This document shows positions 936-54,810 of a stretch of DNA of 64,000 nt, one piece after another. The position numbers and the translations under genes were made by a program. Each line of letters begins with the position of its first letter. Position 1 is the first letter of the stretch. The notes beneath the pieces were generated by a model. That model was not told the origin of the DNA. It saw nothing but the letters and a program-made list of their open reading frames with translations, and searched no databases. This DNA is from Heterodontus francisci (Eukaryota), in the NCBI RefSeq assembly GCF_036365525.1, contig NC_090414.1, positions 20,793,846-20,857,845 of the forward strand, read 5' to 3'.

Positions 936-984
936 TTTGTTATCTGTCACCGTGTGGAAGAAATAATTGATTTGGTCTCCCCAG

Positions 985-1506
985 GAAACGGATGAACTCG
1001 AGGATGTGAAGTCAGGCCTACAGAAGGAAATTGCGGACCTACAGAAGCAGAAAGAGAGGCTGGAATTTATCTTGGAGGCCCATCAGCCCATTTGCAAAAT
1101 GTCGGACGACTCCAGAGGTCCCTCGACATCAGGAATATCCAAGTGCCACGCAGGGAAGCAGAAAGAGCCAGGGCCCGTGTCAGCCTCCTCCTTCAGGCCC
1201 AAGCCACCCAAAGTCTCCATTAAGCCTGTCCCTGACCTTGGCGTGAGTGGTGACGGCCTGGATCCTGAGGCCTTGCACACGCCCACCCTCATGCGGACCC
1301 CCTCCATCACCCCCTTCACCGCCAGCCTGGCCTTCACCTACCCCAGCATGCCAGCCTACGATCCGGAGCCTTCCGCCGGCACCTCGGGCTCCGGCCTGGC
1401 CGTTTTCTCCCTGCCCGAGGCCTGCGCCGCGGCCCATCGCCGTGGCAGCAGCAGCGGGGACCAATCATCGGACTCGCTGAGCTCGCCGACCCTGGTGACC
1501 CTGTAA
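985..1506 (+). CDS. FOSL1: Fos-related antigen 1, last coding exon
   Basis: Acceptor cccag|GAA; leucine zipper [53 protein letters not shown], Fos C-terminus [19 protein letters not shown]; paralog assigned by synteny with CCDC85B/FIBP. Confidence 0.9.
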
Positions 1507-4032: not shown

Positions 4033-4305
4033 GGACTCTGCGAGCTCTGGGCAGCATCATGGTAAGCAGAATTCAGAACTCACTGGAGGGAAGGAATTGT
4101 CAGTAAAGGCAGGTTGACTGAGAATACTGGACCCCACTGAGCCTGGACACTGACCCTAACCAGGGCCCTTGAACACATTCACTACAGCCCTTGACATGTC
4201 CTGCCACAATCCACCTGTTCTGAAAATAAATAAGGACAAAAGCGACATTGCTGGACTGAGAGAGTTCCATTTAACAGCATAAACTGGAACAGTGTAGAGG
4301 GAGCT

Positions 4306-6789
4306 TTACTTGGTGGCAAATACAGGGGGCGGGGCCAAAGTGACCAACCGGTACCACAACATGGAGGCCACCAGTTGGTTTATGACCAACGCTCGGCCCC
4401 TGTAGGAAAGCACTCGGAGCAGTCCTGTCCAGCGCCCCAGCCGAGCGGTGACTTTCGCCTCCAACTCCTGCCAGTTTGCCGGCCAGGCTTCCTCAGCGGG
4501 GCTAAGGTGGACTCCCAGATAGAGGAGGTGCGTGGTGCTCCACGCAAAAGGTGTCATCTCCTCCGGCAGGGAGTCCACCCGCCACTGACCAACCAGGAGT
4601 CCGGAACATTTCTCCCAATTGATCCTCGCGGAGGACGCGGCAGAAAAGGTCTGCTGGCAGTCGCGCATCCTCCGCAAGTCAACGGGATCTGTGATTGCGA
4701 GGAGCACGTCGTCGGCGTAAGCCGAGAGGACGACCCGCATGGCCGGCTCGCGCAGAGCCAATCCCGTCAACCTCCTGCGAAGCAGGCACAGGAAGGGCTC
4801 CACGCAGATGGTATACAATTGGCCGGACATGGGGCACCCCTGACGCACTCCTCTCCCAAATCGAAGGGGCGCCGTCAAGGACCCGTTAACTTTGACTAGA
4901 CACTCTGCGGCGGCGTATAAAAGTCGGACCCGGGCCACGAAATGCGGCCCGAGTCCGAAAGCGCGCAGAGTCCCGAAAAGGTAATCGTGATCCACCCTGT
5001 CGAACGCCTTCTCCTGATCGAGGGAGAGAAAGGCGACCGACTGACCAGTCCTCTGGGAAAGATGGATCAGGTCCTGGACCAGGTGGATGTTGTCCTGGAT
5101 GGACCGGCCTGGGACCGTGTAGGACTGGTCGGGGTGGATCATGTGGGCCAGCACGGAGCCCAGGCGGGTAGACATAGCCCGGGCAAAGATCTTATAATCC
5201 GTGCTGAGGAGGGAGACCGGACGCCAGTTTTTAAGCAGGCGGAGATCGCCCCTCTTCGGCAGCAGGACGATGACCGCCCTGCGCCACGAGAGGGGCATCT
5301 CCCCGGTCGCCAGGCTTTCCCCCAGGACCCGCGCGTAATCGTCCCCCAGGACGTCCCAGAACGCCCTGAGGAACTCCACGGTCAACCCATCCAGCCCTGG
5401 GGATTTGCCCCTCGAGAGCTGGTGGAGGGCGCCAGTCAGCTCCGCCAACGTGAGCGGAGCCTCCAATCCTTCGGCGCCCTCCGGGCTGACCTGCAGCAGG
5501 TCCTCCCACAAAACTCTGCGCGCATCCTCGCTGGACGGATCCGGAGAGAACAACGCACTGTAATACGTCCGGACCAGGAGGCCCATTCCCTCCGGATCCG
5601 TGATGGAGGATCCGTCGTCGGCCAGCAGCTCGACGAGCTGCTTACGGACCGCCCGCCATTTTTCCAGCGAGTAGAAGAAGGGTGAGGCGCGGTCCAAATC
5701 TTCCAGGATCTGGATCCGCGACCTCACGTACGCGCCTCGGGACGCTATGAGCTGCAGGTCCCTCAGCGCGCCCTTCTTCTCTTTGTACGCCTGCCACAGG
5801 GCCGGGTCCGCGACGGCATGACCGAGGCGGGATTCCAAGTCGAGCACCTCCCTCTCAAGGCGCCCGACCTCGGCTTCCCGCCTCTTGGTCGACCCCTTCG
5901 CGTACTCCTGACAGAAGACGCGGATGTGAGTCTTGCCCACATCCCACCATAGCCTCAAGGAGGGGAAGCCCCCCTGCTTCCTTCTCCAGTCGGCCCAGAA
6001 TCGACAGAACGAGTCCCGAAATCGCTCGTCCTCCAGCAGCCGGTTGTTAAAGTGCCAGTACGCGGACCCCGCCCGCGTACGGAGCGGAGTAAACTCCGCC
6101 CACACCAGGCGGTGGTCCGAGCACGGCACCAGCCGCATGTAGGCCGCCGAAACGCGGGAGACGTACGCCTGCGAAATGTAGAGGCGGTCGATTCGCGACC
6201 CTCCTCCTCCAGACCTCCACGTGAAGTCGCTGGAGTCGGGATGGAGATTCCGCCAGACGTCCACCAAGTTAAGGGAGCTGATCAGTCCCCTCAACTTCTC
6301 CACCGACGCTTGGCCGCGCTGGGGACCGGAGCGATCCCCCACCTCGAGGGTGCAGTTAAAATCCTCCCCGAGGATGATGCACTCGCCGCTATCGATGGAG
6401 CTCAAGAGAGCGGACACTTCTTCAAAGAAGCGCGCTTGCAAAGCGCCGGGCCTGGGCGCGTACACGTTCACAAAGTGGAGCGGCACGCTACCCAGGCGAA
6501 CGGCGAGGTGGAGCAAGCGGCCCGGCACTAGCTCCTTGACCCCCAAGATCTCCGGCTGAAAAGTCGGGGCCAACAAGATAGCCACCCCACTAGAAATAGG
6601 GGTGAGGTGACTCATGTAGACCCCACCCTGCCACTCCAGGAGCCAGGTGGCTTCGTCTCCCGGAACGGTGTGGGTTTCCTGCAGAAAGCTCACCGCGTAT
6701 CTCCCTTCCCTGAGGACTGAGAGATTATGAAATCTGCGGTGAGCCCCTCTGCTGCCGTTGATGTTGAGGCTGGCTATGGTTATCTTCAT
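4306..6789 (-). CDS. Tx1 ORF2 endonuclease/reverse transcriptase, 827 aa, C-terminally truncated
   Basis: APE motifs SLNING, LQETH, SGVAILL, EDFN, SRIDR, SDH; RT motifs PGLDG, KNWRPVSLL, LDQEKAFDRV, GVRQGCPMS, YADD; stop codon supplied by satellite junction. Confidence 0.93.
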   Translation of the reverse strand: MKITIASLNINGSRGAHRRFHNLSVLREGRYAVSFLQETHTVPGDEATWLLEWQGGVYMSHLTPISSGVAILLAPTFQPEILGVKELVPGRLLHLAVRLGSVPLHFVNVYAPRPGALQARFFEEVSALLSSIDSGECIILGEDFNCTLEVGDRSGPQRGQASVEKLRGLISSLNLVDVWRNLHPDSSDFTWRSGGGGSRIDRLYISQAYVSRVSAAYMRLVPCSDHRLVWAEFTPLRTRAGSAYWHFNNRLLEDERFRDSFCRFWADWRRKQGGFPSLRLWWDVGKTHIRVFCQEYAKGSTKRREAEVGRLEREVLDLESRLGHAVADPALWQAYKEKKGALRDLQLIASRGAYVRSRIQILEDLDRASPFFYSLEKWRAVRKQLVELLADDGSSITDPEGMGLLVRTYYSALFSPDPSSEDARRVLWEDLLQVSPEGAEGLEAPLTLAELTGALHQLSRGKSPGLDGLTVEFLRAFWDVLGDDYARVLGESLATGEMPLSWRRAVIVLLPKRGDLRLLKNWRPVSLLSTDYKIFARAMSTRLGSVLAHMIHPDQSYTVPGRSIQDNIHLVQDLIHLSQRTGQSVAFLSLDQEKAFDRVDHDYLFGTLRAFGLGPHFVARVRLLYAAAECLVKVNGSLTAPLRFGRGVRQGCPMSGQLYTICVEPFLCLLRRRLTGLALREPAMRVVLSAYADDVLLAITDPVDLRRMRDCQQTFSAASSARINWEKCSGLLVGQWRVDSLPEEMTPFAWSTTHLLYLGVHLSPAEEAWPANWQELEAKVTARLGRWTGLLRVLSYRGRALVINQLVASMLWYRLVTLAPPPVFATK

Positions 6790-9524
6790 GTCAAAGGTAA
6801 TTAAAACCCGTCACAAACACCTCACTGTGAGGAGGGAGTGGAAGTGCACCTGGCCCTCCACTCCCCCAGCAACCCATTGAGGAACACATTAAAACGGCGC
6901 CTCTCAACCAGTTTCACGTCCGCGCGCTTGCCCGTTATCTTAAGGGCGGCACGGACGGACTGTATGATCAGCGCCAGATTCGACCAACGGTCGAGGGCCA
7001 GCTGAACTTTATTGCGGCAACCTCTGCAAGCCGCGAGGAAATCCCGGAGTTCCGCCGTGGGGATGAGAGGAGATTCGGTGGGAGGCACGAGGGACTCCAC
7101 CACCTCACTGGCGATGGAATCAAGATCATCCTCCGTGCCCCGCACCGAATCCCCATCCTCCTCCGGGTCGTCACCGCCAGCGGCCGACACATCCACCACA
7201 CACTGTGGGGCGGACGTCCCGGCCACGCCAGCTGGTCCCGCCTCCGTCACGATCCCACCCCCAGGATCAATGGCGGAGGAGTCCTCTCTGGGTTCTATTG
7301 TGAAACTGGAGCCTGTAGGCACCAGCGGCTCAGGAACCCCCTCCACCTCCGTCCCCAGGCCAATGAGTGGTCCAGGGGAGACAGAAGTTCCGGACTCCGG
7401 GAAACCAGCCGGAGCCGAGACTTGAGGCGGCGAGAGGAGGCCATCTCCTGCTCCGCCAGCGCCCACAGGCCCAGCAGATGGGGCAGCATTCTCAGTGATA
7501 ACTGGGTCGGGGGTCTCCATGTTGGTGGTGGACTCCGGCTGGGAGGCCCGACCCTCTGGGGCCTCGCCCTCCCCTTCATTCAGGACACCCGACCCAGTAG
7601 CAGTGGCAGAATGGGCAGCTTCCCCAGGCTCCCCCACCACAAGCAGGGCCCCACTTACTCCTTCAGGAGGGGCCTCATGTACCGGGGCCATCCCCTCCCC
7701 TCCATCCTGAGGAATAGGGAGCACCTGCCCGGACTTTGCAGCCTTGGTGGTGGCGGTAGGGGAAACCTGGGGACCCGAAACAGGAGACAGCTCCCCTCCA
7801 ACAGATGGGCCCTGCGCCTCAGGGCCCCTTGTTACCTCTGTGGAGGGGTGCCTTCTCCTCTTTTTCCCAGTTGTGTGCGGAGGCTCAGAGACCTCCATAT
7901 CATCAGAGGCCTCCACCTCCACACTCTCCTTTTTTTTATTCACCCTGGGCATGAGCCCAGCCCTGGGGCAAGTTGACTTCCCGAGATCGGGCCTTGGGCT
8001 GAGCTCAGGCTCGGGTAGTGTCACGATATCCAGGGGACGCGCCTCTCGATGTTTATTCCTCCTCCGCGCCTTCCTTCCACTTGGACGGTCACCCCCCTCC
8101 CTGCCGGAGGCTGTGGTTTTCACAGTGTAGTGGGGGTGGGAGGAGGTGCAGCGTCGCCACCCTGGGCCGCTGAGTTGGAGTTGGCAGCCGGGAGGTTGGG
8201 GCAGTTCTTACGAACATGCCCCATCCCCTTACAGACATGGCACCGCACCCCGTCCAAGGTCCAGAAGACGCGGTAGGCCGTCCCCTGGAATTCTACATTA
8301 AAGTGGCCCTCTGTCACCTCCTCCCGCGCCAGCTGCATGAATAACTGGCAGCGGAAGGAGTACACATGTCGGAGGCTGTTCTCCCGAAGACCGAGCGGGA
8401 CTGGGGTGAGCCCCGTCTTTACCTCCCCCAGATGGTGCAGGTGGGGAAGGAGGAGCTCACCAGGAATGAAGGGCGGGACATTGGATAAAATGAGCCTTTG
8501 CGCAGTGGCCTCCAGGGGGTCCACTGGCAGAAAGGTCCCGCCCACGGTGAGCCCCTTGCTCAGAGCCAGGGACACCGCCCGCTCGGTCTTCAAAAAGAAC
8601 ACAGCCTTCCCATACATCTTTGAGGCCACAACAATGGCCGAGGGGCCGACAACCACGGCCATTGCCTTAACGCAGGCCTCAATAGACATTTTGGGGTGGG
8701 GATAGCTCTTCACCCCATGGCTGCATGTCAACAATTTAAAGGGTGACGGGGCCACGTGGGCAGCCACAGAAGCTGCAGCTGCGTAGGTAGTAGAGGGCCC
8801 GGCCACCGGTGATGAAGGGCTTGCCATGGGTCCAAGAGCTAAACCCACCCCAAATTGTGGACTTGCACACCAAATATCAGCGATTTAACTGAAAATATTG
8901 AATATATATTAAAGACAAACAAACAAACAACAAATTAGTGGAGAGGCTGAGGTAATAGAGGAGAGGCAAAGGCAGGCTGGAAGGGATGACTTGCTTTCTG
9001 GAGGTGGTGCTCACAGTACACTTAAAACAGTCTTTGAAGTTGGTCTTCCGGTCTTCTGGTTGGGGGAGTCGTCTTCACCTGGGTCAGCTGAAGCTGCCCA
9101 GGCACTATCTATCCCCTTCCGTCTGTTTAGCTGGGCAGCTTCAGCTGACCCAGGCTTGGCAATTGGGGTGGGGAGGGAGCTTCCCTGTGTGCTTGTGCAG
9201 CAGCACAGATTCCTGTTGAATTGGCAGCCCCACCCCTTGTTGTTCCAGCCACTTGTTCTTCCCCCAACAGTCCAAAGTAAATTACTGGTGTTCAGCACCC
9301 ACCTCCAGACAAAGCCTTGTATCCAACAAAAAAAGAATGTCGCTTTCTTCTCTTTTAAAGGTGATTGTTGTTGGAGTTTTCCTCTGCTTGTTGGTAGCTG
9401 CTCTCCCTTGCTCAGTGCAGCTCCTCTCTCCACCTCTGCAACCTCCAACTGTCACCAGCACTCTCAGCTACACCTCGTTGAGGCTCTCAACACTCAGGCT
9501 TCCCAAATCAGAGAGCAGCCAATC
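4311..9524 (-). mobile_element. Tx1-clade (L1 group) non-LTR retrotransposon; 5' end present, 3' part lost; both ends join the 70-bp satellite
   Basis: ~680-bp 5' UTR, ORF1 with CCHC knuckle, ORF2 APE+RT; satellite at 4289-4310 and from 9528. Confidence 0.92.
6822..8848 (-). pseudogene. Tx1 ORF1 (gag-like), split by a frameshift near 8123-8130
   Basis: 242-aa ORF with CHVCKGMGHVRKNC zinc knuckle overlaps a 433-aa ORF in another frame that ends 32 bp before the ORF2 ATG. Confidence 0.8.
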
Positions 9525-9527
9525 GCA

Positions 9528-9598
9528 GTGCTGTACCTGTCCTGGGAGTGTTTGATGGGGACAGTGTCGAGGGAGCTTTACTCTGTATCTAACCCCCG
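9528..9598 (+). repeat. Single 70-bp satellite unit between insertions
   Basis: GTGCTGTACCTGTCC...TCTAACCCCCG. Confidence 0.95.
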
Positions 9599-9687
9599 TT
9601 TTTTTTTTTTTTCTGACTGCAGCACTGTCAGCTGCACCTCGTTGAGGCACTCAGCACTCAGTATTCCCAATCAGAGAGGAGCCAATC
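9599..9687 (-). mobile_element. Short retroposed copy of a Tx1 5' leader with A14 tail
   Basis: T14 at 9599-9612, then 75 bp resembling 9455-9524 (CACCTCGTTGAGG..CACTCAG..TCCCAA..TCAGAGAG..GCCAATC). Confidence 0.75.
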
Positions 9688-9731
9688 CCCGTTTTTTTTT
9701 TAGAGGGAGCTTTACTCTGTATCTAACCCCG

Positions 9732-10610
9732 TTTTTTTTTTATATAAGGTGACCTTTCTACCCCAGGCCCCTTTTATATTTTTCACGTCGAGGGGGCCTT
9801 TATTCCTCAGGCCCCCTTTATGTACATATTTACAGTTTTAAAATAACTTTATTAAAACCAGATAAATAAACAAAAAGCTCAAATTAAAATGCCATTCTCG
9901 GCGTCGACAATGCACTCCAGTCCCTGCGGTGCCCACCGGTCGCGGAAGGCCTCAAGCGTACCGGCGGACACCGCATGCTCCTTTTCCAGGGACACCCGGG
10001 CGCGAACGTAACCGCGGAAGAGGGGCAGGCAATCGGGGAGGACGGACCCCACGACGGCCCGCAACCTGGACCTGTGAATTGCCACCTTGGCCAGGCCCAG
10101 GAGCAGACCGACGAGGAGATCCTCCTCCCGGCCCAAGCCCCTCCGCACCGGGTGCCCAAAGATCAGGAGCGTGGGACTGAAGTGCAGCCAGAATTTGAGG
10201 AGCAGCCCCTTCAGATACTCAAATAGGGGCTGCAACCTCGCACACTCCGTATAAATGTGGAACACGGACTCGTCCAGGACGCAGAAAGGCCCCGAAACCC
10301 TCCTCGGGAGCCGGTCCCGCACAACCCGAGCCGCCTCTCGGAAATGCCCTCCGTGCCATTCCAATCGGCGCGGAGGGGTTTCCTGTACGGGCTGCTCCTG
10401 CACACTCTCCACTTCCTCGCCCTCGTCAGCCGGCCGGACACGCCCTGGCGGTCCATGTTGCCATCTGGCGGCGAGGGGAAACCCCGATGGAGGTCTCTCT
10501 CCGCGGGAGTCTTCCCCCTTTACATAGGGGACCTGGGGTGGAGGGTGCTGCACAGAGCAGTCCCGTGCAATAGGCTTTTAAGTAGGTTCACGGACTCCCA
10601 GGCCACCTGT
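9732..10610 (-). mobile_element. 5'-truncated, 5'-inverted Tx1 copy (ORF2 C-terminus, 3' UTR, poly(A))
   Basis: T10 at 9732-9741; minus strand PFCVLDESVFHIYTEC..NGILI* from 10289; plus strand 10290-10610 ..GDLGWRVLHRAVPCNRLL..SQATC; flanking CTGTATCTAACCCC(C)G duplication. Confidence 0.88.
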
Positions 10611-11100
10611 ATCTAACCCCCGTGCTGTACCTGTCCTGGGGAGTGTTTGATGGGGACAGTGTAGAGGGAGCTTTACTCTGTATCTAACCCCCGTGCTGTA
10701 CCTGTCCTGGGAGTGTTTGATGGGGACAGTGTAGAGGGAGCTTTACTCTGTATCTAACCCCCGTACTGTACCTGTCCTGGGGAGTGTTTGATGGGGACAG
10801 TGTAGAGGGAGCTTTACTCTGTATCTAACCCCCGTACTGTACCTGTCCTGGGGAGTGTTTGATGGGGACAGTGTAGAGGGAGCTTTACTCTGTATCTAAC
10901 CCCGTACTGTACCTGTCCTGGGAGTGTTTGATGGGGACAGTGTAGAGGGAGCTTTACTCTGTATCTAACCCCCGTGCTGTACCTGTCCTGGGAGTGTTTG
11001 ATGGGGACAGTGTAGAGGGAGCTTTACTCTGTATCTAACCCCGTACTGTACCTGTCCTGGGAGTGTTTGATGGGGACAGTGTAGAGGGAGCTTTACTCTG
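10607..11100 (+). repeat. 70-bp satellite array (~7 units)
   Basis: Same unit as 1-935. Confidence 0.97.
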
Positions 11101-12129
11101 AATTGAAGCTGTTGATATGTGAAGCTGCTCAATGGAGGAACTGAACTGAGACTTGGAGAAGGGAAGGATTTGGTAAAGATTTTTGACTGTGCTGGACTCC
11201 GGTCAGGGCAGGGTGATGAATAAGAGGCTTATCAGGAAAAGTCTGAATAAACAATTCTTCCTTTTAGCCAGCAGCGCAGGATGTAGCTGCACATTGTAAT
11301 ATATTGAGTCATATTGGACTGATCCGAGTCATACTCCTGGACTGCACGTGTCACAAAGCACAGAGAGAAATGATTGAAACTTAAGGCAGTGTTGGGGCTA
11401 AGGGGGCGCATTGAAACTCTGACCATTGAGATTTGTGGGCGGTCAAGGGTCAAAGGGCATAGTGGAAGGGAGCAAAGTTGAAAAAAGACTGGGACAGAGG
11501 TTGGGGGCGAATAATTGGAGGAGACCAAGCTTGGTTACTGCAAGCCTGGAGAGTGGGTGGGGGGGAAGAGATAAATGACGGACAGGAAGTGACCCTTGAT
11601 CCAGCCGACTGCCCAGTGCCTTCCAATATCCCAGTACATCAGAGGCTCCTCGTTCCCCGTTTCCCTACAATTCCTCAGTTTCTCCAGTCAATCTGCCATG
11701 CCTGGAATCATTCTGGTAAATCCATCCCGCACCCTCTCCGAAGCCTTCACAACCTTCCTAAGGCGTGGTGTCCGGAATATTCCAGCTGGGCGTAACCAGT
11801 GTTGTAGATGTGTTTATAGGGACTCTCCACTCCACCTGATCCCATGTGTTCCCCCAGGGTCCGCTATCCTCTGGGAAAACTCACCATCCGACACCCCACC
11901 CCCGATCGGGCCTGATACAATAACTGGAGGTTGTGAGTCCCACAGATCCTTGTGTGGGGGCTAGTAGGGAGCAGCTGGACTGAATGGCCTCTGTGTATGG
12001 TGGAACAGCGCCACGCAGTGGCAGGCAGGCAGTACTACAGTGTCTGGGAAAGGTTGCTCTTGTGCCACCCGGTGGCAGTTGTGAGGGGGTACAAGTCTGC
12101 GACCACTCCCACCCCACCCCCCAGTGTAA

Positions 12130-13380: not shown

Positions 13381-13800
13381 TCTGTAACCTCCTCCAGCCC
13401 CTACAACCCTCCCTATCTCTGTAACCTCCTCCATCCCCTACAACACTCCCTATCTCTGTAACCTCCTCCAGCCCCTACAACCCTCCCTATCTCTGTAACC
13501 TCCTCCATCCCCTACAACACTCCCTATCTCTGTAACCTCCTCCATCCCCTACAACCCTCCCTATCTCTATAACCTCCTCCATCCCCTACAACCCTCCCTA
13601 TCTCTATAACCTCCTCCAGCCCCAACAACCCTCCCTATCTCTGTAACCTCCTCCAGCCCCAACAACCCTCCCTATCTCTGTAACCTCCTCCAGCCCCTAC
13701 AACCCTCCCTATCTCTCTAACCTCCTCCAGCCCCAACAACCCTCCCTATCTCTGTAACCTACTCCAGCCCCTACAACCCTCCCTATCTCTGTAACCTCCT
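13381..13800 (+). repeat. 37-bp minisatellite derived from L2 ORF2
   Basis: Unit CTCTGTAACCTCCTCCAGCCCCTACAACCCTCCCTAT, continuous with the L2 3' end that follows. Confidence 0.93.
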
Positions 13801-14130
13801 CCAGCCCCCACAACCCTCCGAGATCTCTGCGCTCCTCCAATTCCGTCCTCTTGTCCATCCCCCGATTCCCATCTCTCCACCATTGCCGGCCGTGCCTTCA
13901 GCTGCCTGGGGCCCTAAGCTCTGGAATTCCCTCCCTAAACCTCTCCGTCTCTCTCTCTCCTCCTTTAAGACGCTCCTTAAAAACCGACCTCTTTGACCGA
14001 GCTTTTGGTCGCCTGTCCCTAATATCTCCTGATGTGGCTCGGGGTCAAATTCTGTCTGATTTACGCTCCTGGGAAGCACCTTGAGATGTAATACCAGGTT
14101 AAAGGTGCGAGATAAATGCAAGTGGTTTGC
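13800..14130 (+). mobile_element. L2-like LINE 3' end
   Basis: Encodes remnant GRAFSCLGP.LWNSLPKPLRL..SFKTLLK typical of L2 ORF2 C-terminus. Confidence 0.75.
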
Positions 14131-14329
14131 CTTCAGAGACTTGGGGAATGTCTCTGTATGCAATTGCTGGTGCCTGGTAATTCCTCCATAGAGGCATCCT
14201 CTGTGCATGAGCTGACTATTCGGCCACGGGGTGCAGCACAATCACTAAATTTCGGTGAAGGATCAGCCGGGGAGGACGGAGATTGACCAGAAAGACAGCT
14301 TTGCTGTTTGACCACATTGAACTGCAGGA

Positions 14330-16650
14330 AACTGTGAGAAAGGCTTTGCATTACTTTAGCCCCTTTCACATTCTCCGGACGTCCCAAAGTGCTGCACAGC
14401 CAGTCAAGTACTTTTCTGAGGCGCGTTGTCACTGCTGTGATGTAGGAAACGCAGCAGCCGAGTTGCGCACAGCAAGATCCCACAAACATCGATGAGGTAA
14501 TGACCCAGATCGTCCGCTTTTTCACCAGTGATGTTGGTTGAGGGATAAATATTGGCCCCAGGACACCGGGGAGAACCCCCCCCCCCCCCACTTCCCCCGC
14601 CCCCTCTCTTCAAAATAACGGGGATGGGATCTTTAATGTCCACCTGAGAGGGCTGGAGGGGTTTCGGTTTAACGTTGCATGTGAAAGATGGCACCTCCAA
14701 CAGTGCGGCACTCCCTCAGTACTGACCCTCCGACAGTGCGGCACTCCCTCAGTACTGACCCTCCGACAGTGCGGCACTCCCTCAGTACTGACCCTCCGAC
14801 AGTGCGGCACTCCCTCAGTACTGACCCTCCGACAGTGCGGCACTCCCTCAGTACTGACCCTCCGACAGTGCGGCACTCTCTCAGTACTGACCCTCCGACA
14901 GTGCGGCACTCCCTCAGTACTGACCCTCCGACAGTGCGGCACTCCCTCAGTACTGACCCTCCGACAGTGCGGCACTCCCTCAGTACTGACCCTCCGACAG
15001 TGCGGCACTCCCTCAGTACTGACCCTCCGACAGTGCGGCGCTCCCTCAGTACTGACCCTCCGACAGTGCGGCACTCCCTCAGTACTGACCCTCCAACAGT
15101 GCAGCGCTCCCTCAGTACTGACCCTCCGACAGTGCGGCACTCCCTCAGTACTGACCCTCCGACAGTGCGGCACTCCCTCAGTACTGACCCTCTGACAGTG
15201 CGGCACTCCCTCAGTACTGAACCTCCGACAGTGCGGCGCTCCCTCAGTACTGACCCTCCGACAGTGCGGCACCCCCTCAGTACTGACCCTCCGACAGTGC
15301 GGTGCTCCCTCAGTACTGACCCTCCGACAGTGCAGCACTCCCTCAGTACTGACCCTCCGACAGTGCGGCACTCCCTCAGTACTGACCCTCCAACAGTGCA
15401 GCGCTCCCTCAGTACTGACCCTCCGACAGTGCGGCACTCCCTCAGTACTGACCCTCCAACAGTGCGGCACTCCCTCAGTACTGACCCTCCGACAGTGCGG
15501 CGCTCCCTCAGTACTGACCCTCCGACAGTGCGGCACTCCCTCAGTACTGACCCTCCGATAGTGCGGCACTCCCTCAGTACTGACCCTCCGACAGTGCGGC
15601 AATCCCTCAGTACTGACCCTCCGACAGTGCGGCACTCCCTCAGTACTGACCCTCCAACAGTGCAGCGCTCCCTCAGTACTGACCCTCCGACAGTGCGGCA
15701 CTCCCTCAGTACTGACCCTCCGACAGTGCGGCACTCCCTCAGTACTGACCCTCCGACAGTGCGGCACTCCCTCAGTACTGACTCTCCGACAGTGCAGCAC
15801 TCTCTAAGTACTGACCCTCCGACAGTACGGCACTCCCTCAGTACTGAACCTCCGACAGTGCAGCACTCTCTAAGTACTGACCCTCCGACAGTGCGGCACT
15901 CCCTCAGTACTGACCCTCCGACAGTGCGGCACTCCCTCAGTACTGACTCTCCGACAGTGCGGCACTCCCTCAGTACTGACCCTCTGACAGTGCGGCACTC
16001 CCTCAGTACTGACCCTCTGACAGTGCGGCACTCCCTCAGTACTGACCCTCCGACAGTGCGGCACTCCCTCAGTACTGACCCTCCGACAGTGCGGCACTCC
16101 CTCAGTACTGACTCTCCGACAGTGCAGCACTCTCTAAGTACTGACCCTCCGACAGTACGGCACTCCCTCAGTACTGAACCTCCGACAGTGCAGCACTCTC
16201 TAAGTACTGACCCTCCGACAGTGCGGCACTCCCTCAGTACTGACCCTCCGACAGTGCGGCACTCCCTCAGTACTGACTCTCCGACAGTGCGGCACTCCCT
16301 CAGTACTGACCCTCCGACAGTGCGGCACTCCCTCAGTACTGACTCTCCGACAGTGCGGCACTCCCTCAGTACTGACCCTCCGACAGTGCGGCACTCCCTC
16401 AGTACTGACCCTCCGACAGTGCGGCACTCCCTCAGTACTGACTCTCCGACAGTGCAGCACTCTCTAAGTACTGACCCTCCGACAGTGCGGCACTCCCTCA
16501 GTACTGACTCTCCGACAGTGCGGCACTCCCTCAGTACTGACCCTCTGACAGTGCGGCACTCCCTCAATACTGCACTGGGAGTGTCGGCCTGGACTTTGTC
16601 CTCAAGTCTCTGGACTGGGGCTCAAACCCAGAACCTTCTGACTGTAAGAG
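14330..16650 (-). mobile_element. tRNA-derived Deu-domain SINE with internal 33-bp expansion
   Basis: B-box-like GGTTTGAGCCC head near 16625; body matches other copies at ~29400-29750, 42060-42400, 50295-50690 and 53300-53770. Confidence 0.72.
14697..16570. repeat. 33-bp minisatellite (~57 copies)
   Basis: Unit CCGACAGTGCGGCACTCCCTCAGTACTGACCCT. Confidence 0.97.
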
Positions 16651-17309
16651 AGCTACCGGCGAAGCTGCTGTTGCCGCTGGATGGTCCAGTACTTGCAGAA
16701 CATGGAGGCCCCAGGCATCCTGGAGCGAGCCTCGCAGGTCCTGGAATAGTGTGTGTGAGGAGGTGTCGTGATGCTTTTAGGATGGATACGAATGGGATCA
16801 AGTAGGATCACTTGGACGAGGATGGGTCTGGATGAGAGGGCAGTGAGCAGACGTGACAGTGCTGACAACAACAGAGGATGAGGGAACACATTTTGGTCAA
16901 TTACTTAGCATCGCATTGAATTTCCAGCACAGAAACAGGCTGTTCAGCCCATCTGCTCCGTGCTGGTGTTTCTGCCCCACACGAGCCTCCTCCCCCACCC
17001 CCTCTCCATCTCTCCCCCATCACCATCTCCTATTCCTTTCTCCCTCGTGTGTTTATCCAGCTTCCCCTTAAATGCATCGACACTATTCATGTGTTCATGA
17101 AGGGAGCAGAAAGATTGTTTCATACTTAAAACATTTGGGGCTTCTGCAAACAGGAAGGGGATTGGCCGGGAATATTTAAGCCTCAGGATGCGGCTCTTTC
17201 TCCCAGTTCTGGTCTGACAGGAAAAGCCATCGGAATTCTAAAATAGGCACAGCGAGAAACAGGGGAAGTGTCTCCTCGGTCGCCGGAGATTACAGACGGC
17301 ACTGCAACA

Positions 17310-17590
17310 ACAACTCGCCTTCACATAGCGTGGTTAACTCAGTAAAACATCCCGCAAGCCACATAAGGAGATATTAGGGACAGGCGACCAAAAGCTCGGT
17401 CAAAGAGGTCGGTTTTTAAGGAGCGTCTTAAAGGAGGGGAGAGAGAGGCGGAGAGGTTTAGGGAGGGAATTCCAGAGCTTAGGACCCCAGGCAGCTGAAG
17501 GCACGGCCGCCAATGGTGGAGCGATGGGAATCGGGGGATGGACAAGAGGGCGGAATTGGAGGAGCGCAGAGATCTCGGAGGGTTGTGGGG
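17310..17590 (-). mobile_element. L2-like LINE 3' end, inverted relative to the 13.8-kb copy
   Basis: Reverse complement of 13800-14040. Confidence 0.75.
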
Positions 17591-18692
17591 GCTGGAGGAG
17601 GTTACAGAGATAGGGAGGGTTGTAGGGGCTGGAGGAGGTTTCGGAGATAGGGAGGGTTGTAGGTGCTGGAGGAGGTTTCGGAGATAGGGAGGGTTTTAGG
17701 TGCTGGAGGAGGTTACAGAGATAGGGAGGGTTGTAGGTGCTGGAGGAGGTTAGAGAGATAGGGAGGGTTGTTGGTGCTGGAGGAGGTTAGAGAGATAGGG
17801 AGGGTTGTAGGTGCTGGAGGAGGTTAGAGAGATAGGGAGGGTTGTAGGTGCTGGAGGAGGTTAGAGAGATAGGGAGGGTTGTTGGTGCTGGAGGAGGTTA
17901 CACAGATAGGGAGGGTTGTAGGTGCTGGAGGAGGTTACAGAGATAGGGAGGGTTGTAGGTGCTGGAGGAGGTTAGAGAGATAGGGAGGGTTGTTGGTGCT
18001 GGAGAAGGTTACAGAGATAGGGAGGGTTGTTGGTGCTGGAGGAGGTTAGAGAGATAGGGAGGGTTGTTGGTGCTGGAGGAGGTTAGAGAGATAGGGAGGG
18101 TTGTAGGTGCTGGAGGAGGTTACAGAGATAGGGAGGGTTGTTGGTGCTGGAGGAGGTTACAGAGATAGGGAGGGTTGTTGGTGCTGGAGGAGGTTAGAGA
18201 GATAGGGAGGGTTGTTGGTGCTGGAGGAGGTTAGAGAGATAGGGAGGGTTGTAGGTGCTGGAGAAGGTTACAGAGATAGGGAGGGTTGTAGGTGCTGGAG
18301 AAGGTTACAGAGATAGGGAGGGTTGTTGGTGCTGGAGGAGGTTAGAGAGATAGGGAGGGTTGTAGGTGCTGGAGGAGGTTACAGAGATAGGGAGGGTTGT
18401 TGGTGCTGGAGGAGGTTAGAGAGATAGGGAGGGTTGTAGGTGCTGGAGGAGGTTAGAGAGATAGGGAGGGTTGTAGGTGCTGGAGAAGGTTACAGAGATA
18501 GGGAGGGTTGTAGGGGCTGGAGGAGGTTAGAGAGATAGGGAGGGTTGTGGGGGCTGGAGGAGGTTAGAGAGATAGGGAGTGTTGTAGGTGCTGGCGGAGG
18601 TTAGAGAGATAGGGAGGGTTGTAGGGGCTGGAGGAGGTTACAGAGATAGGAAGGGTTGTAGGGGCTGGAGGAGGTTACAGAGATAGGAAGGG
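17590..18692 (-). repeat. 37-bp L2-derived minisatellite (~30 copies)
   Basis: Unit GGAGGAGGTTACAGAGATAGGGAGGGTTGTAGGTGCT. Confidence 0.95.
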
Positions 18693-19943: not shown

Positions 19944-21359
19944 CCTCCAGCCCTCTCTCTCTCCCAGGCTCAGACATGCAGATGAAAGCCCCCCTTGCTT
20001 TCAGAACACAATCTCCTCTGTGAATAATGAACAACGCGCCCCTTTTTTTTCTTCCTTTCCTCCCCCAAAGAGAAAGGGAATCCAATTTGCTCCAATCCGC
20101 AGGGGGTTCAGAAATGAGAAGACAGCAAGAAGCGATACTGAAAAGAATTTCACCCGAGTGCAAATGCAGTCAGAGGCTCCAGTGCAAGACTACATCCTGC
20201 AGCTCGGCCAGCCTCCATACATCATTCAAAGCACGTCAGAGGCTGAGCTCTCTTCTAACAACACGGGACATCCTTCCTCAGTAACAAAGCCCCTTCCCTT
20301 CTGAGCATTGTTAACCAAGGAGACAGCAGGGCGGGGGGAGGGGGGGAATCAGCCAACCCGACCCTCATGTGTTTCCACCCACGCAGAAAGGGGCAGATCG
20401 ACAGTCAGGATTCACCTGCCAGAAACGCCCCCAGCTCCCAACCGCCCCTAAACACAAAAAACAATTGCAGTGGGGTTTGTCCTTTTTTTTTTAGCCTGTG
20501 GCAGTACACATGACCCACTTGGTGCGCCAGTGCCGCGGGAGCACCACTCACTCCGAGGTGCTGTCCGCCGGGCGCGGAGTTATGCAGCTGTCAGGTTGCT
20601 GGCTGTGGGATCGCGCTGTGCGTTTCCGACATCGCGCCCCCCCCCCCCCCACCCCTTCATAAGCACTTCGTCAGCTGTGAAGCCCTGGGAGGGAGGGAGG
20701 GGGATGGTGGTGGGTGAGAGGCGCTACATAAAGGCAGGCTCGTTACTGTACAGGGGAGGTACCTGCAATCGAACCGCGCTGGGCGCCTTGGCGAGGTTTC
20801 TACAGAGCAAGAGTTCACCAACTCGGGGAGCAGTTGTGACATGGCCGGGCGGCTGCTCAAGTTGTAATTCAACATTTGAGATCAATAGGGGACACTCCCA
20901 ACGAGATAAGACTCCCCGGGTGAGGCCAGACAGGAACAGGAGGAGGCCATTCAGCCCCTCGATGCTGTCCCACCATTCAATGAGATCATGTACTTTCTCA
21001 CTTCACTCCTGAAAGGTTGAGCATTACTTTTTAGACTCTGCCCCCTACTCCTAGACTCCGCAACCAGTGGAAATAGTTTCTCTCTATCTACCCTCTCAAT
21101 TGCCCTCAATATCTGAAAAAATTGCACCATTGGGGAATTACTTTGTGTCCGGCCTACAGATGTGTTCCCAGAGTTGCACAACAGCCAGAACAGCCAGCAA
21201 CAACTGTGCAGAGAGGCCGATGAGGGGCCGTTGCACTAACATTACTGATTCAATATGAGCACAGAAGAAACAGGAGCAGGATTAGGTCATTCGGCCCCTT
21301 GAACCGACTCCTCCACTCATTACCATCACGGCTCCTCTGCTACTCAACTCAAGGATGTG

Positions 21360-22630
21360 AGTGAGGAGATGGAGTGGGTTTCGGAGGGGGGGTGAGTGAG
21401 GGAAGGGGAGGAGTGTGTTTGGAGGGATGGGAGTGAGTGAGGGATGGAGTGTGTTTGGAGCGTTAGGAGTGAGTAACGATGCAGTGTGTTTGGAGGGATG
21501 GGAGTGAGTGAGGGATGGAGTGTGTTTGGAGGGATGGGAGTGAGTGAGGATGGAGTGTGTTTGGAGGGACTGGAGTGAGGATGGAGTAAGTTTGGAGGGA
21601 TGGGAGTGAGTGAGGGATGGAATGTGTTTGGAGCGTTAGGCGTGAGTAACGATGCAGTGTGTTTGGAGGGATGGGAGTGAGTGAGGGATGGAGTGTGTTT
21701 GGAGGGATGGGAGTGAGTGAGGATGGAGTGTGTTTGGAGGGACTGGAGTGAGGATGGAGTAAGTTTGGAGGGATGGGAGTGAGTGAAGATGGAGTGTATT
21801 TTGAGGGATGGCAGTGAGTGAGGATGGAGGGTGTTTGGAGGGATGGAGTGTATTTGGAGGGATGGGAGTGCGTGAGGATGGTGGGTGCTTGGAGGGATAG
21901 GAGTGAGTGAGGATGAAGTGTGTTTAGAGGGATGGGAGGGTGTGAGGATGGATTGTGTTTGGAGGGATGGGAGTGAGTGAGGTTAGAGTGTGTTTGGAAG
22001 GATGGGAGGGAGTGAGGGATGGAGTTTGTTTGGAGGGATGGGAGTGAGTGAAAATGGAGTGTGTTTGGAGGGATGGGAGTGAGTGAGGATGGAGTGTGTT
22101 TGGAGGGATGGGAGTGAGTGAGGATGGAGTGTGTTATGAGGGATGGGAATGAGTGAAGATGGAGAGTGTATGGAGGGATGGGAGTGAGTGAGGAATGGAG
22201 TGTGTTTGGAGGGATGGGAGTGAGTGAGGATGGAGTGTGTTTGGAGGGATGAGAGTGAGGATGTAGTGTGTTTGGAGGGATGGGAGTGAGTGAGGATGGA
22301 GTTTGTTTGGAGGGATGGGAGTGAGTGAGGATGGAGTGTGTTTGGAGGGATTGAGGGTGAGGATGGAGGGTGTTTGGAGGGATGGTAGTGAGTGAGGATG
22401 GAGGGTGTTTGGAGGGATGGTAGTGAGTGAGGATGGAGGGTGTTTGGAGGGATGGTAGTGAGTGAGGATGGAGGGTGTTTGGAGGGATGGTAGTGAGTGA
22501 GGATGGAGGGTGTTTGGAGGGATGGTAGTGAGTGAGGATGGAGGGTGTTTGGAGGGATGGTAGTGAGTGAGGATGGAGGGTGTTTGGAGGGATGGTAGTG
22601 AGTGAGGATGGAGGGTGTTTGGAGGGATGG
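21360..22630. repeat. G/A-rich ~34-bp minisatellite
   Basis: Unit ~GAGTGTGTTTGGAGGGATGGGAGTGAGTGAGGATG. Confidence 0.93.
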
Positions 22631-24097: not shown

Positions 24098-24432
24098 TTG
24101 ATGGGGACAGTGTAGAGGGAGCTTTACTCTGTATCTAACCCAGTGCTGTACCTGTCCTGGGAGTGTTTGATGGGGGACAGTGTAGAGGGAGCTTTACTCT
24201 GTATCTAACCCCGTACTGTACCTGTCCTGGGAGTGTTTGATGGGGGACAGTGTAGAGGGAGCTTTACTCTGTATCTAACCCCGTACTGTACCTGTCCTGC
24301 GAGTGTTTGATGGGGGACAGTGTAGAGGGAGCTTTACTCTGTATCTAACCCCTGTGCTGTACCTGTCCTGGGAGTGTTTGATGGGGACAGTGTAGAGGGA
24401 GCTTTACTCTGTATCTAACCCAGTGCTGTACC
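24098..24432 (+). repeat. 70-bp satellite array (~4.5 units) in FIBP intron
   Basis: Same unit; no insert seen. Confidence 0.95.
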
Positions 24433-24498
24433 AGTGGAAGTGTTTTGTGAAAAATGATTCAGGTGGAGTGATGATTTGAACTGTTTTCCCTTCGGCAG

Positions 24499-30290: not shown

Positions 30291-31716
30291 AGCTCCCTCT
30301 ATACTGTCCCCATCAAACACTCCCAGGACAGGTACAGTACGGGGGTTAGATACAGAGTAAAGCTCCCTCTATACTGTCCCCATCAAACACTCCCAGGACA
30401 GGTACAGCACAGGGTTAGATACAGAGTAAAGCTCCCTCTATACTGTCCCCATCAAACACTCCCCAGGACAGGTACAGTACGGGGGTTAGATACAGAGTAA
30501 AGCTCCCTCTACACTGTCCCCATCAAACACTCCCAGGACAGATACAGTACGGGGGTTAGATACAGAGTAAAGCTCCCTCTACACTGTCCCCATCAAACAC
30601 TCCCAGGACAGATACAGCACGGGGGTTAGATACAGAGTAAAGCTCCCTCTACACTGACCCCATCAAATACTCCCAGGACAGGTACAGTACGGGGTTAGAT
30701 ACAGAGTAAAGCTCCCTCTATACTGTCCCCATAAAACACTCCCCAGGACAGGTACAACACGGGGGTTAGATACAGAGTAAAGCTCCCTCTATACTGTCCC
30801 CATCAAACACTCCCCAGGACAGGTACAACACGGGGGTTAGATACAGAGTAAAGCTCCCTCTACACTGTCCCCATCAAACACTCCCAGGACAGGTACAGTA
30901 CGGGGGTTAGATACAGAGTAAAGCTCCCTCTATACTGTCCCCATCAAACACTCCCAGGACAGGTACAGCACAGGGTTAGATACAGAGTAAAGCTCCCTCT
31001 ATACTGTCCCCATCAAACACTCCCCAGGACAGGTACAGCACAGGGTTAGATACAGAGTAAAGCTCCCTCTATACTGTCCCCATCAAACACTCCCAGGACA
31101 GGTACAGTACGGGGGTTAGATACAGAGTAAAGCTCCCTCTATACTGTCCCCATCAAACACTCCCAGGACAGGTACAGCACAGGGTTAGATACAGAGTAAA
31201 GCTCCCTCTATACTGTCCCCATCAAACACTCCCCAGGACAGGTACAGCACGGGGGTTAGATACAGAGTAAAGCTCCCTCTACACTGTCCCCATCAAACAC
31301 TCCCCAGGACAGGTACAGTACGGGGGTTAGATACAGAGTAAAGCTCCCTCTATACTGTCCCCATCAAACACTCCCCAGGACAGGTACAGCACGGGGTTAG
31401 ATACAGAGTAAAGCTCCCTCTACACTGTCCCCATCAAACACTCCCCAGGACAGGTACAGCACGGGGTTAGATACAGAGTGAAGCTCCCTCTATACTGTCC
31501 CCATCAAACTCTCCCCAGGACAGGTACAGCACGGGGTTAGATACAGAGTAAAGCTCCCTCTACACTGTCCCCATCAAACACTCCCCAGGACAGGTACAAC
31601 ACGGGGGTTAGATACAGAGTAAAGCTCCCTCTATACTGTCCCCATCAAACACTCCCAGGATAGGTACAGCACTGGGAGTTGGAAAGAAAAGAAAAAAAAA
31701 AAGAAACGGGGTTAGA
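30291..31716 (-). repeat. 70-bp satellite array (~19 units, reverse orientation) with terminal A-tailed insert
   Basis: Reverse complement of unit; insert ~31673-31706. Confidence 0.96.
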
Positions 31717-31861
31717 GGAAAGTCTTTCCGTCTGGGCTCGACTTGCAGACAGGTGATAGTCTGGGTGTCTGACACCCTCCTGTTTTAGATTTTGGAGCAT
31801 GTTTTTAAATGAGTGGGAATGTGTTCTGATTTTTGCTGCTGTGTCTCTGATCTTCACACAG

Positions 31862-49331: not shown

Positions 49332-49462
49332 GTACAGTCAGTCCTCCTCCATTACTCAGCCCCTGATTTCAACCTAGATTTCTAAATGAGTTCTGAAAGG
49401 ATGTCGGTAAAATGGTCATGTTGAACTGTACCTCATTGGACCTCGCCAAGACTGTCCATCCG

Positions 49463-49685
49463 CATCAAACACTCCCAGGACAGGTACAGCACGGGGGTTA
49501 GATACAGAGTAAAGCTCCTCTACACTGTCCCATCAAACACTCCCAGGACAGGTACAGCACGGGGGTTAGATACAGAGTAAAGCTCCCTCTACACTGTCCC
49601 ATCAAACACGCCCAGGACAGGTACAGCACAAGTGTAGTATCTGTTCTTAAAAAAAAAACAGGGGTTAGATACAGAGTAAAGCTCC
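49463..49685 (-). repeat. 70-bp satellite mini-array (reverse) carrying a U2-derived insert
   Basis: ~2.7 units in EFEMP2 intron. Confidence 0.92.
49629..49658 (+). pseudogene. Retroposed U2 snRNA fragment (about nt 28-48) with A10 tail
   Basis: CAAGTGTAGTATCTGTTCTTA matches the conserved vertebrate U2 sequence as recalled (..AAGAUCAAGUGUAGUAUCUGUUCUUAUC..). Confidence 0.8.
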
Positions 49686-49978
49686 AAAGTTGATGGTGAG
49701 TGTCAGGTGGTTAATGAGGGGAGACGTTCATTGCTGCATTCTGACTCAAGTCCCCGACAGTAACTGGGGTTCCAATGGGGTTTGGGAGATGCACGACAGG
49801 TTGCGGGGAGAAGAGGAGGAGTTAGGAAAGGATTTATCGGGTAACTTTGTGACTGGGCGGTTCATTATTACAGCTGGGAGGGGAGGATCATGTTAATGGC
49901 CACCCCCCCCCCTCCTCCTCTCCACCCCCTGCTTGCTTCCATCCATTCAATGCTACTTTGTGTGTTTTGATGATACAG

Positions 49979-54002: not shown

Positions 54003-54810
54003 CTGCCAATGAGAAACAGACAGTCAGTCTGCCAACCAATCAGAAACACACAACGGTTACAAGCACACTTAATCTGCCAATCAGAAGCATGCAGTCAGTC
54101 TGCCAATCAGAAGCACGCAGTCAGTCTGCCAATCAGAAACACGCAGTCAGTCTGCCAATCAGAAACGCAGTCAGTCTGCCAATCAGAAGCGCAGTCAGTC
54201 TGCCAATCAGAAGCGCAGTCAGTCTGCCAATCAGAAACGCAATCAGTCTGCCAATCAGAAACGCAGTCAGTCTGCCAATCAGAAACGCAGTCAGTCTGCC
54301 AATCAGAAGCGCAGTCAGTCTGCCAATCAGAAGCGCAATCAGTCTGCCAATCAGAAACGCAGTCAGTCTGCCAATCAGAAACGCAGTCAGTCTGCCAATC
54401 AGAAACACGCAGTCTGCCAATCAGAAGCGCAGTCAGTCTGCCAATCAGAAACGCAGTCATTCTACCAATCAGAAACACAGTCAGTCTGCCAATCAGAAAC
54501 ACACAGTCAGTCTGCCAATCAGAAACACACAGTCAGTCTGCCAATCAGAAACACACAGTCAGTCTGCCAATCAGAAACGCAGTCATTCTACCAATCAGAA
54601 ACGCAGTCATTCTACCAATCAGAAACGCAGTCATTCTACCAATCAGAAACACAGTCATTCTACCAATCAGAAACGCAGTCATTCTACCAATCAGAAACGC
54701 AGTCATTCTACCAATCAGAAACACACAGTCAGTCTACCAATCAGAAGTGCACAGTCAGTCTACCAATCAGAAGTGCACAGTCAGTCTACCAATCAGAAGT
54801 GCACAGTCTA
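54003..54810. repeat. 24-26-bp CCAAT-containing minisatellite (~30 copies) abutting a MUS81 acceptor
   Basis: Unit GTCAGTCTGCCAATCAGAAACGCA. Confidence 0.94.

What the first reader, a model, noticed from the sequence alone, without database searches (positions are those of the whole stretch)
4289..11100. Satellite-specific Tx1-clade retrotransposon family
Seen: both Tx1 copies lie inside one interrupted satellite array in the same orientation, and no Tx1 sequence was recognised elsewhere in the 64 kb. ORF2 is open for 827 codons, suggesting a young copy. Inference: a target specificity for a dispersed 70-bp satellite, cutting next to a G/C-rich motif rather than the L1 TT|AAAA site. I do not know of a description of this target. 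It could interest site-specific integration engineering.
Basis: partly seen in the sequence, partly recalled or inferred. Interest (0 to 1): 0.78.

Follow-up and report, generated by a model that had tools for sequence, protein, structure and literature searches.

The report
Shark jumping gene targets one minisatellite
A very active jumping gene in a shark genome inserts mostly at one exact base of a scattered 70-letter repeat, and puts copies of ordinary host messenger RNA there too: a new target for a family already known to aim at repeats.

Summary
The target specificity is real. The element is a young Tx1L-lineage non-LTR retrotransposon (ORF2 56% and ORF1 48% identical to Xenopus Tx1L over the regions searched). 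Of 65 genomic copies sampled in two ways, 54 have their poly(A) at one bond of the 70-bp repeat (AACCCCG|TGCTG), 2 at the same site rebuilt by another copy's 5' end, 1 is ambiguous and 8 are off target. Genome-wide there are 1,436 exact site+poly(T) junctions and 1,139 exact full-length 5' junctions. Truncated copies end at different points, with 4-16-nt duplications, so the events are independent. Corrections: the 827-codon ORF2 is a 3'-truncated piece of a 1,245-aa protein; the second copy is one twin-primed insertion with a 3' transduction inside a perfect 16-bp duplication. Repeat and satellite targeting by Tx1 elements is in print, and this scan noted other shark Tx1 targets on other DNA. 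I found no description of this target; Repbase and Dfam could not be searched.

The parts
4286..4310 (+). 25-nt remnant of the 70-bp repeat, ending 16 nt before the nick position; supplies the stop codon of the truncated ORF2
4311..9528 (-). Copy 1: intact 5' end, 3'-truncated (about 1.39 kb of the 3' end missing); 95.2% identical to intact copy L082
4306..6789 (-). ORF2, 827 of 1,245 aa: APE endonuclease and RT; 11 aa differences from L082 including G142E; short loop FTWRSGGGGSRIDR
6822..8827 (-). ORF1 (CCHC knuckle), frameshifted by a 34-nt deletion near 8124; 680 aa in intact copies
8828..9528 (-). 5' UTR; its end reads CAGCCAATC(G)CAG|TGCTGTACC on the + strand and rebuilds a target-like site
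9529..9598 (+). One 70-bp unit between the two insertions; 9583-9598 is the left target-site duplication (CTGTATCTAACCCCCG)
9599..9741 (-). 3'-transduced segment of copy 2: T14, 79 nt of another copy's 5' end (9613-9691), T10, 30 nt of repeat (9702-9731), T10
9742..10288 (-). Copy 2: 3' UTR (9742-9878, two AATAAA signals, hairpins) and ORF2 C-terminus
10289..10606 (+). Inverted ORF2 segment of copy 2 (twin priming); 5-nt microhomology with the duplication at 10607-10611
10607..11100 (+). Seven units of the repeat; 10607-10622 is the right target-site duplication
31617..31720 (-). Poly(T) scar at the nick position at the end of the 30291-31676 array (limits approximate)
49459..49830 (-). Short array with a poly(T)+16-nt scar and unique flank; this flank was carried by 3' transduction to two other contigs (L161, L160)

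Best explanation
A recently and highly active Tx1L-lineage retrotransposon of a shark inserts by target-primed reverse transcription at one bond of a dispersed 70-bp minisatellite. Shown from sequence: the insertion point is 5'-AACCCCG|TGCTGTACC-3', always in one orientation; truncated copies carry 4-16-nt duplications; full-length copies join the downstream half-site precisely, through an element-borne CCAATCCC(A/C/T)G end that rebuilds a usable site, so copies stack head to tail; 3' transductions and non-family poly(A) RNAs enter the same site. Inferred: ORF2p nicks after CCCCG, primes on poly(A) without needing the family's 3' tail, cuts the second strand up to about 16 nt away, and reads mainly the core from about -6 to +9. 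In the window, copy 2 is one twin-primed, 3'-transducing insertion one unit away from copy 1, which lacks its 3' end.
For: 3' junctions: 33 of 40 and 21 of 25 plus 2 at rebuilt sites. 5' junctions of copies with the 5' end: 29 of 30 on the downstream half-site, the 30th on a later poly(T) insertion; the same junction in all the 5' UTR variants seen. Genome counts: 1,436 site+T7, 2,540 and 1,208 empty sites of the two variants, 1,139 exact 5' junctions, reversed controls 0. 22 truncated copies with different end points and 4-16-nt duplications (by eye). Host RNA with a 15-nt duplication at the site (L116). Duplications that bracket repeat fragment plus element (window; L128). About 87 of 150 scored copies lie in open frames of 1,250 aa or more (hand count). 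Element-to-repeat joints at the same place in contigs of organism D, and a 5' UTR variant joined there in organism E.
Against: 8 of 65 sampled copies are off target, most without a clear duplication. Five copies with an on-target 3' end have non-repeat DNA where the alignment ends on the 5' side (L049, L065, L070, L075, L080). Three truncated copies show a small target deletion or blunt join instead of a duplication (L019, L071, L087). Both samples are the best-scoring of 1,343 and 11,345 candidates, so older copies are under-sampled. Transduction means that some 'repeat behind the poly(A)' calls are carried sequence (L013). No biochemical test of the nick.
Confidence: 0.9

Rival explanations
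1. The repeat is part of the element's RNA (carried at its ends), so element and repeat travel together without targeting.
For: 3' transductions of the repeat exist (window, L128, L161). The bases just before the 5' junction are element-borne (CAG in 34 of 48 against 9 of 234 intact units). The first unit beside a full-length 5' end differs more from the next unit than the next two differ from each other (4.25 against 1.1 mismatches, n=8; truncated control 2.4 against 2.7, n=9).
Against: 5'-truncated copies, which lack the RNA's 5' end, still have the repeat on that side, in register, with duplications. Host RNAs with no repeat sequence sit at the same bond with duplications. The poly(A) lies between element and repeat.
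Confidence: 0.04
2. A few chance insertions were amplified with the satellite or by segmental duplication.
For: Some sampled loci are duplicates (L154/L155, L056/L057) or locally amplified (L026, L089-L095).
Against: Different truncation points, duplication lengths, poly(A) sites and 5' UTR variants on dozens of contigs.
Confidence: 0.02
3. The endonuclease has only a short motif preference (about CC(G/A)|TG), and the repeat is hit because it is open, transcribed, fragile or bound by a tethering factor.
For: Off-target sites often end in CCC or CCA; the upstream half can be swapped for the element's own 5' end; the recognition loop is short and glycine-rich; listed hits cluster near contig ends.
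Against: Within the unit one bond on one strand is used; the TG variant is preferred over TA two bases past the nick (99 of the first 100 listed 5' junctions and 51 of 57 other junctions, against 68% of empty 4-C sites). A 5-mer would have millions of sites elsewhere (inference).
Confidence: 0.2

Closest known systems
Tx1L of Xenopus laevis (ORF2 P14381; type element of the Tx1 clade)
   Same: Two ORFs, APE endonuclease and RT, CCHC knuckle; ORF2 56% identical over residues 1-800, RT 64%, EN 50%, ORF1 48%; same supported RT clade (100/100); inserts at a fixed site of a repeat (PMC4494074, PMC1950540, passages read).
   Different: Tx1L targets the DNA transposon Tx1D; here the target is a free-standing 70-bp minisatellite with no shared array ends seen. 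The sequence after the nick is TGCT here, AGTT for Tx1L (PMC1950540). EN hairpin loop 7 residues against 11.
Crocodilian Tx1-Mar/SINEU, Keno, Kibi, Koshi and the unnamed satellite-targeting Tx1 of Kojima 2015 (PMC4494074)
   Same: Tx1 families with a preferred repeat target, tandem stacking around a duplication, and mobilisation of other RNAs into the target; 'Sat, satellites' is listed among known targets in the Fig. 3 legend.
   Different: Targets are Mariner/Harbinger/LTR elements, U2 genes or microsatellites. No shark family occurs in that paper's main text (0 hits for 'shark'). I could not see the figure or supplements, so the 'Sat' family is unidentified.
Human LINE-1
   Same: Poly(A) priming, 5' truncation, twin-priming inversion, 3' transduction, retrocopies of host mRNA, duplications up to about 16 nt (L1 features partly recalled); ORF2 homologous (E 4e-79).
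   Different: L1 uses a short TTTT/AA consensus at very many sites (PMC1950540); this family uses one G/C-rich bond of one repeat.
R2 (28S rDNA) and YURE (U2-derived satellite)
   Same: Fixed multicopy target; possible use of target sequence in the RNA 5' end (R2 co-transcription, PMC4494074 passage); YURE inserts into a satellite (PMC4640811 passages).
   Different: These have restriction-like endonucleases; here the endonuclease is APE-type, and the repeat has no Rfam match.

Membership tests
Tx1 clade non-LTR retrotransposon | ORF2 with N-terminal APE endonuclease followed by RT | tested here: met
   Pfam Exo_endo_phos 1.5e-16 and RVT_1 2.9e-38 on P0001
Tx1 clade non-LTR retrotransposon | RT groups with Tx1L rather than L1 | tested here: met
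   RT 64% to Tx1L; clade of 8 rows with Tx1L, turtle, sturgeon and stingray, 100/100, midpoint root, no L1 row in the tree; L1 ORF2 far weaker
Tx1 clade non-LTR retrotransposon | ORF1 homologous to Tx1 ORF1 with a CCHC knuckle | tested here: met
   48% to Tx1L ORF1, E 1.4e-48; zf-CCHC motif present, E 0.039, below the Pfam cut-off
Tx1 clade non-LTR retrotransposon | Poly(A) 3' end, 5' truncations, target-site duplications, no LTRs | tested here: met
Target-specific Tx1 family (Kojima 2015 criterion) | More than 20% of flanks are one sequence type | tested here: met
   54 of 65 (83%) at one bond; criterion from PMC4494074 section 6 passage
Target-specific Tx1 family (Kojima 2015 criterion) | Endonuclease nicks the target in vitro | not testable with these tools
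   needs a nicking assay
Tx1L proper | Inserts into Tx1D; 11-residue EN hairpin loop | tested here: not met
   different target sequence after the nick; loop of 7 residues
Keno / Mutsu / Dewa | Target is a U2 snRNA gene, 5S rDNA or tRNA spacer (Mutsu and Dewa targets recalled) | tested here: not met
   no Rfam family of that kind in 8800-11200 at E<=1; named Keno, Mutsu and Dewa proteins were not available for the tree
Kibi / Koshi | Target is a (TC)n or (TTC)n microsatellite | tested here: not met
   target is a 70-bp unit; teleost Tx1 proteins fall in the other clade
Catalogued Repbase/Dfam family | Entry with this sequence and target | not testable with these tools
   neither library is held

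The most novel reading that the evidence does not exclude
This ORF2p reaches single-base target precision although the hairpin loop thought to set APE-endonuclease specificity is cut to WRSGGGG, so it reads its site by another surface; and because it primes on any poly(A) RNA it is a natural writer of arbitrary mRNA into one fixed site, while also rebuilding and spreading that site itself (5' end, 3' transduction) in a race with a less-used TA variant of the repeat.
Probability: 0.3. Interest if true: 0.75.

Novelty: new member of a known kind. Interest (0 to 1): 0.55.

Why it matters
It adds a vertebrate APE-type element with a defined G/C-rich target, more than a thousand full-length junctions and dozens of open ORF2 copies, so an active protein is easy to choose for study. 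Natural insertion of host mRNA at the exact site suggests that cargo needs only a poly(A) tail, which is what RNA-templated, site-specific gene insertion wants. The 7-residue glycine-rich loop is a natural test of the model that this loop governs activity and specificity: in L1 the short-loop and loop-deletion variants kept 6-10% of nicking and 0-2% of retrotransposition (PMC1950540, Table 1). About 28% of one exact site class is occupied, and one repeat variant is hit less, which makes target saturation and escape measurable.

Tried and rejected
Repeat as a small-RNA gene derivative: no relevant Rfam match, only two chance miRNA hits. Repeat as the interior of a DNA transposon like Tx1D: six array ends in the window share no terminal sequence; not tested genome-wide. 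Repeat in JGI metagenomes: 0 matches. Other Tx1 families in this genome as a control: the teleost query returned this family in all 25 loci fetched, so no internal control family was obtained. Organisms B and C hold near-identical element contigs at low, flat depth together with the repeat; this may be carried-over shark DNA, so they are not counted, and no horizontal transfer is claimed. Runs marked 'RNA?' are guesses, so expression is not shown. Position histogram of poly(T)-to-repeat joins is broad and inflated by one amplified locus; it does not show that the AGTAAA in the repeat is the poly(A) signal. No structure model of the endonuclease was obtained, so the loop claim rests on alignment only. 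Parent gene's upstream exons were not found within 20 kb. Literature searches without a description of this target. Supplements of PMC4494074 and the text of PMC85248 could not be read.
Full report
1. What is in the window. The window lies on contig C44 of a 6.0-Gb assembly. The nearest named protein, 93% identical, is from Heterodontus, so the host is very probably a bullhead shark. A 70-bp repeat forms arrays at 1-936, 10607-11100, 24098-24445, 30291-31676 and 49459-49685. Copy 1 (4311-9528, minus strand) has a 5' UTR, ORF1 and an 827-aa ORF2 with APE endonuclease and RT domains. Against an intact genomic copy (L082: ORF1 680 aa, ORF2 1,245 aa from the Met) it lacks about 1.39 kb of the 3' end, takes its stop codon from the repeat, and has G142E and a 34-nt ORF1 deletion. 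The break joins the repeat 16 nt before the nick position with a 2-nt microhomology; whether this is a later deletion or internal priming is open. Copy 2 is 5'-truncated, with 10289-10606 inverted and a 5-nt microhomology to the target end, as in twin priming. Bases 9583-9598 and 10607-10622 are an identical 16-mer, while the inner repeat piece at 9717-9731 is one C shorter. The simplest reading is that 9599-10606 is one insertion with a 3' transduction. No other Tx1 coding sequence is in the window.

2. Target specificity. Sample A was the 40 best matches to the 3' UTR, of 1,343 candidates (all 40 fetched). A script called 29 exact; by eye four more (L017, L021, L022, L085) are at the site, one is ambiguous (L028) and six are off target (L009, L011, L012, L030, L081, L086). 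Sample B was the first 25 of 150 scored matches to a teleost Tx1 C-terminal protein piece, none shared with A: 18 exact by script, three more degenerate sites by eye (L152, and L154/L155, which look like one duplicated locus), two at another copy's 5' junction (L135, L145) and two off target (L151, L158). Together 54 of 65 are at one bond, 2 at a rebuilt site, 1 ambiguous, 8 off. For 5' ends, 30 of 41 matches were fetched: 29 join TGCTG/TACTG of the repeat directly and one joins a later poly(T). Exact genome counts: upstream 22-mer plus T7, 1,436; plus TGCTGTACC, 2,540; plus TACTGTACC, 1,208; full-length 5' junction pattern, 1,139; reversed controls 0. So 28% of this one site class carries a poly(T); some of these are amplified scars, not separate events. 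Even with ten times more sites than counted, a random insertion would hit one with a chance of a few in a million (inference).

3. Independence and junctions. Read by eye truncated or inverted copies end at different element positions and rejoin the repeat with duplications of 4-16 nt; three (L019, L071, L087) show a small deletion or blunt join; five on-target copies (L049, L065, L070, L075, L080) have non-repeat DNA where the alignment ends. Full-length copies differ: all 5' UTR variants seen end in CCAA(T/C)CC(C)NG on the downstream half-site, and the last three bases are CAG in 34 of 48 against 9 of 234 intact units, so they come from the element. This end rebuilds a usable site: L019 and L128 are insertions there with duplications of the element-derived half, and contig C1387 holds five stacked copies. 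The shared core of both kinds of site is about AA(T)CCCCG|TGCTGTACC. The TG variant is favoured: 99 of the first 100 listed 5' junctions, 46 of 48 and 51 of 57 in my loci, against 68% of empty 4-C sites (the 57 include some array edges and duplicates). The unit next to full-length 5' ends is more divergent from its neighbours (n=8) than the unit next to truncated ends (n=9); this may mean that RNA carries upstream repeat, or only an edge effect.

4. Cargo. Among the first 30 of the 1,436 junctions, poly(T) is followed by the family 3' end, by short stretches of repeat, or by unrelated sequence. L116, L111 and L102 are non-family inserts of about 170, 185 and 375 nt with duplications of about 15, 12 and 7 nt. 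The L116 insert matches three other places: one has a splice acceptor and looks like the parent's last exon (L119), one is a retrocopy that crosses that junction (L120); the exon's 24-aa translation matches only MRPL33, weakly (5 of 5 hits, E 0.045-0.36). The unique DNA at window 49,686-49,789 occurs again, 99% alike, behind a full-length copy (99.3% to L082) with several repeat units and a poly(A) on C1387, and as an older orphan in a repeat site on C43. The window's array there has no element, so the donor was another allele or has been lost (inference). The element uses at least three poly(A) positions in its 3' UTR.

5. Activity and range. About 87 of 150 scored copies lie in open frames of 1,250 aa or more (counted by hand; some may be haplotype duplicates). 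Public runs under six coded organism labels hold the element. Of four laid, organism D shows truncated element joined to the repeat at the site and poly(T) scars, organism E a 5' UTR variant joined there; B and C are low-depth and not counted.

6. Protein. ORF2 residues 1-800 are 56% identical to Tx1L ORF2, 55-61% to most turtle proteins, 60% to a sturgeon and 74% to a stingray protein; ORF1 is 48% identical to Tx1L ORF1. In a 29-row RT tree the family is sister to the stingray protein (100/99) inside a clade with Tx1L (100/100), apart from teleost Tx1 proteins; the root is the midpoint and P0060 was left out for lack of an RT match. Between the anchoring T and S the EN hairpin loop is WRSGGGG in 14 of 14 copies that gave a match (two with one change nearby), against 11 or 12 residues in 9 of 9 homologues that gave a match; 2 homologues, the stingray one among them, gave none. 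Repanas et al. (PMC1950540, passages and Table 1 read) report that this loop matters for activity and specificity and that short or deleted loops cripple L1 EN. No structure model could be made.

7. Mechanism. Shown: position, orientation, duplications, inversion, stacking, transduction, foreign cargo. Inferred from the known TPRT pathway: first nick after CCCCG, poly(A) priming, second nick up to about 16 nt away, homology-aided attachment of full-length 5' ends. Because repeat-free host RNAs land on the same bond, the nick is probably set by protein, not by pairing of the cargo RNA. How much is read by the EN itself and how much by other domains or chromatin is open.

8. Known and new. Kojima 2015 (PMC4494074: passages and section 15 read; figure and supplements not seen) lists Tx1 targets including transposons, microsatellites, small RNA genes and 'Sat, satellites', and describes stacked SINEU insertions mobilised by Tx1-Mar. 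Kojima and Jurka 2015 (PMC4640811, passages) name the Tx1 clade as one of three target-specific groups. PMC8869645 and PMC3747384 (passages) add nothing on sharks' Tx1. Nine searches (listings only for papers not named) gave no description of this family or target; subscription papers, Repbase and Dfam are outside the library, and the unseen supplements may bear on the 'Sat' family. Earlier notes of this scan describe shark-like Tx1 elements aimed at a Penelope tail and at an LTR in other genomes (unchecked); none matched this sequence or genome.

9. Verdict. A real, well-supported new member of a known kind, with a target I could not find described and three features worth a specialist's time: the short loop, host mRNA written into a fixed site, and self-renewal of the target. 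Interest 0.55.

Noticed in passing
window 967-1506 (+): 179-aa open frame that reads like the last exon of a Fos-family gene (leucine zipper end; resemblance recalled; no Pfam hit).
   Followed up: no
window 49,459-49,830; L161 (C1387), L160 (C43): This array and its unique flank were the source of two 3' transductions, yet the window's copy holds no element: possible insertion polymorphism or loss.
   Followed up: partly
window 4310/4311: Copy 1's 3' break meets the repeat at the same base (-16) where copy 2's duplication begins, with a 2-nt microhomology; unexplained.
   Followed up: partly
L116, L119, L120, L121: MRPL33-like mRNA retrocopies: one in the Tx1 site, two at other sites; L120 joins the first coding stretch directly to the last exon and has its own duplication.
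   Followed up: partly
L061, L064, L069, L079, L082: At least four different 5' UTRs and ORF1 N-termini share one ORF2 (96-99%) and the same terminal motif, as with promoter swapping in L1.
   Followed up: no
L089-L095 (C1): A poly(T)+36-nt scar has itself been amplified into a new tandem unit of about 46/92 bp.
   Followed up: no
window 9078-9154: 24-bp inverted repeat in the 5' UTR (9078-9101 with 9131-9154).
   Followed up: no
listings: Repeat and element hits cluster within about 15 Mb of the ends of the largest contigs.
   Followed up: no
runs X6 and X11 (organisms B, C): Near-identical element contigs at low flat depth under other organism labels; contamination or transfer not resolved.
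   Followed up: no
window 13381-18692, 21353-22630, 36569-38965, 54073-54798: Several other minisatellite arrays (37, 33, 35, 18 and 24 bp units) with no Tx1 sequence.
   Followed up: no
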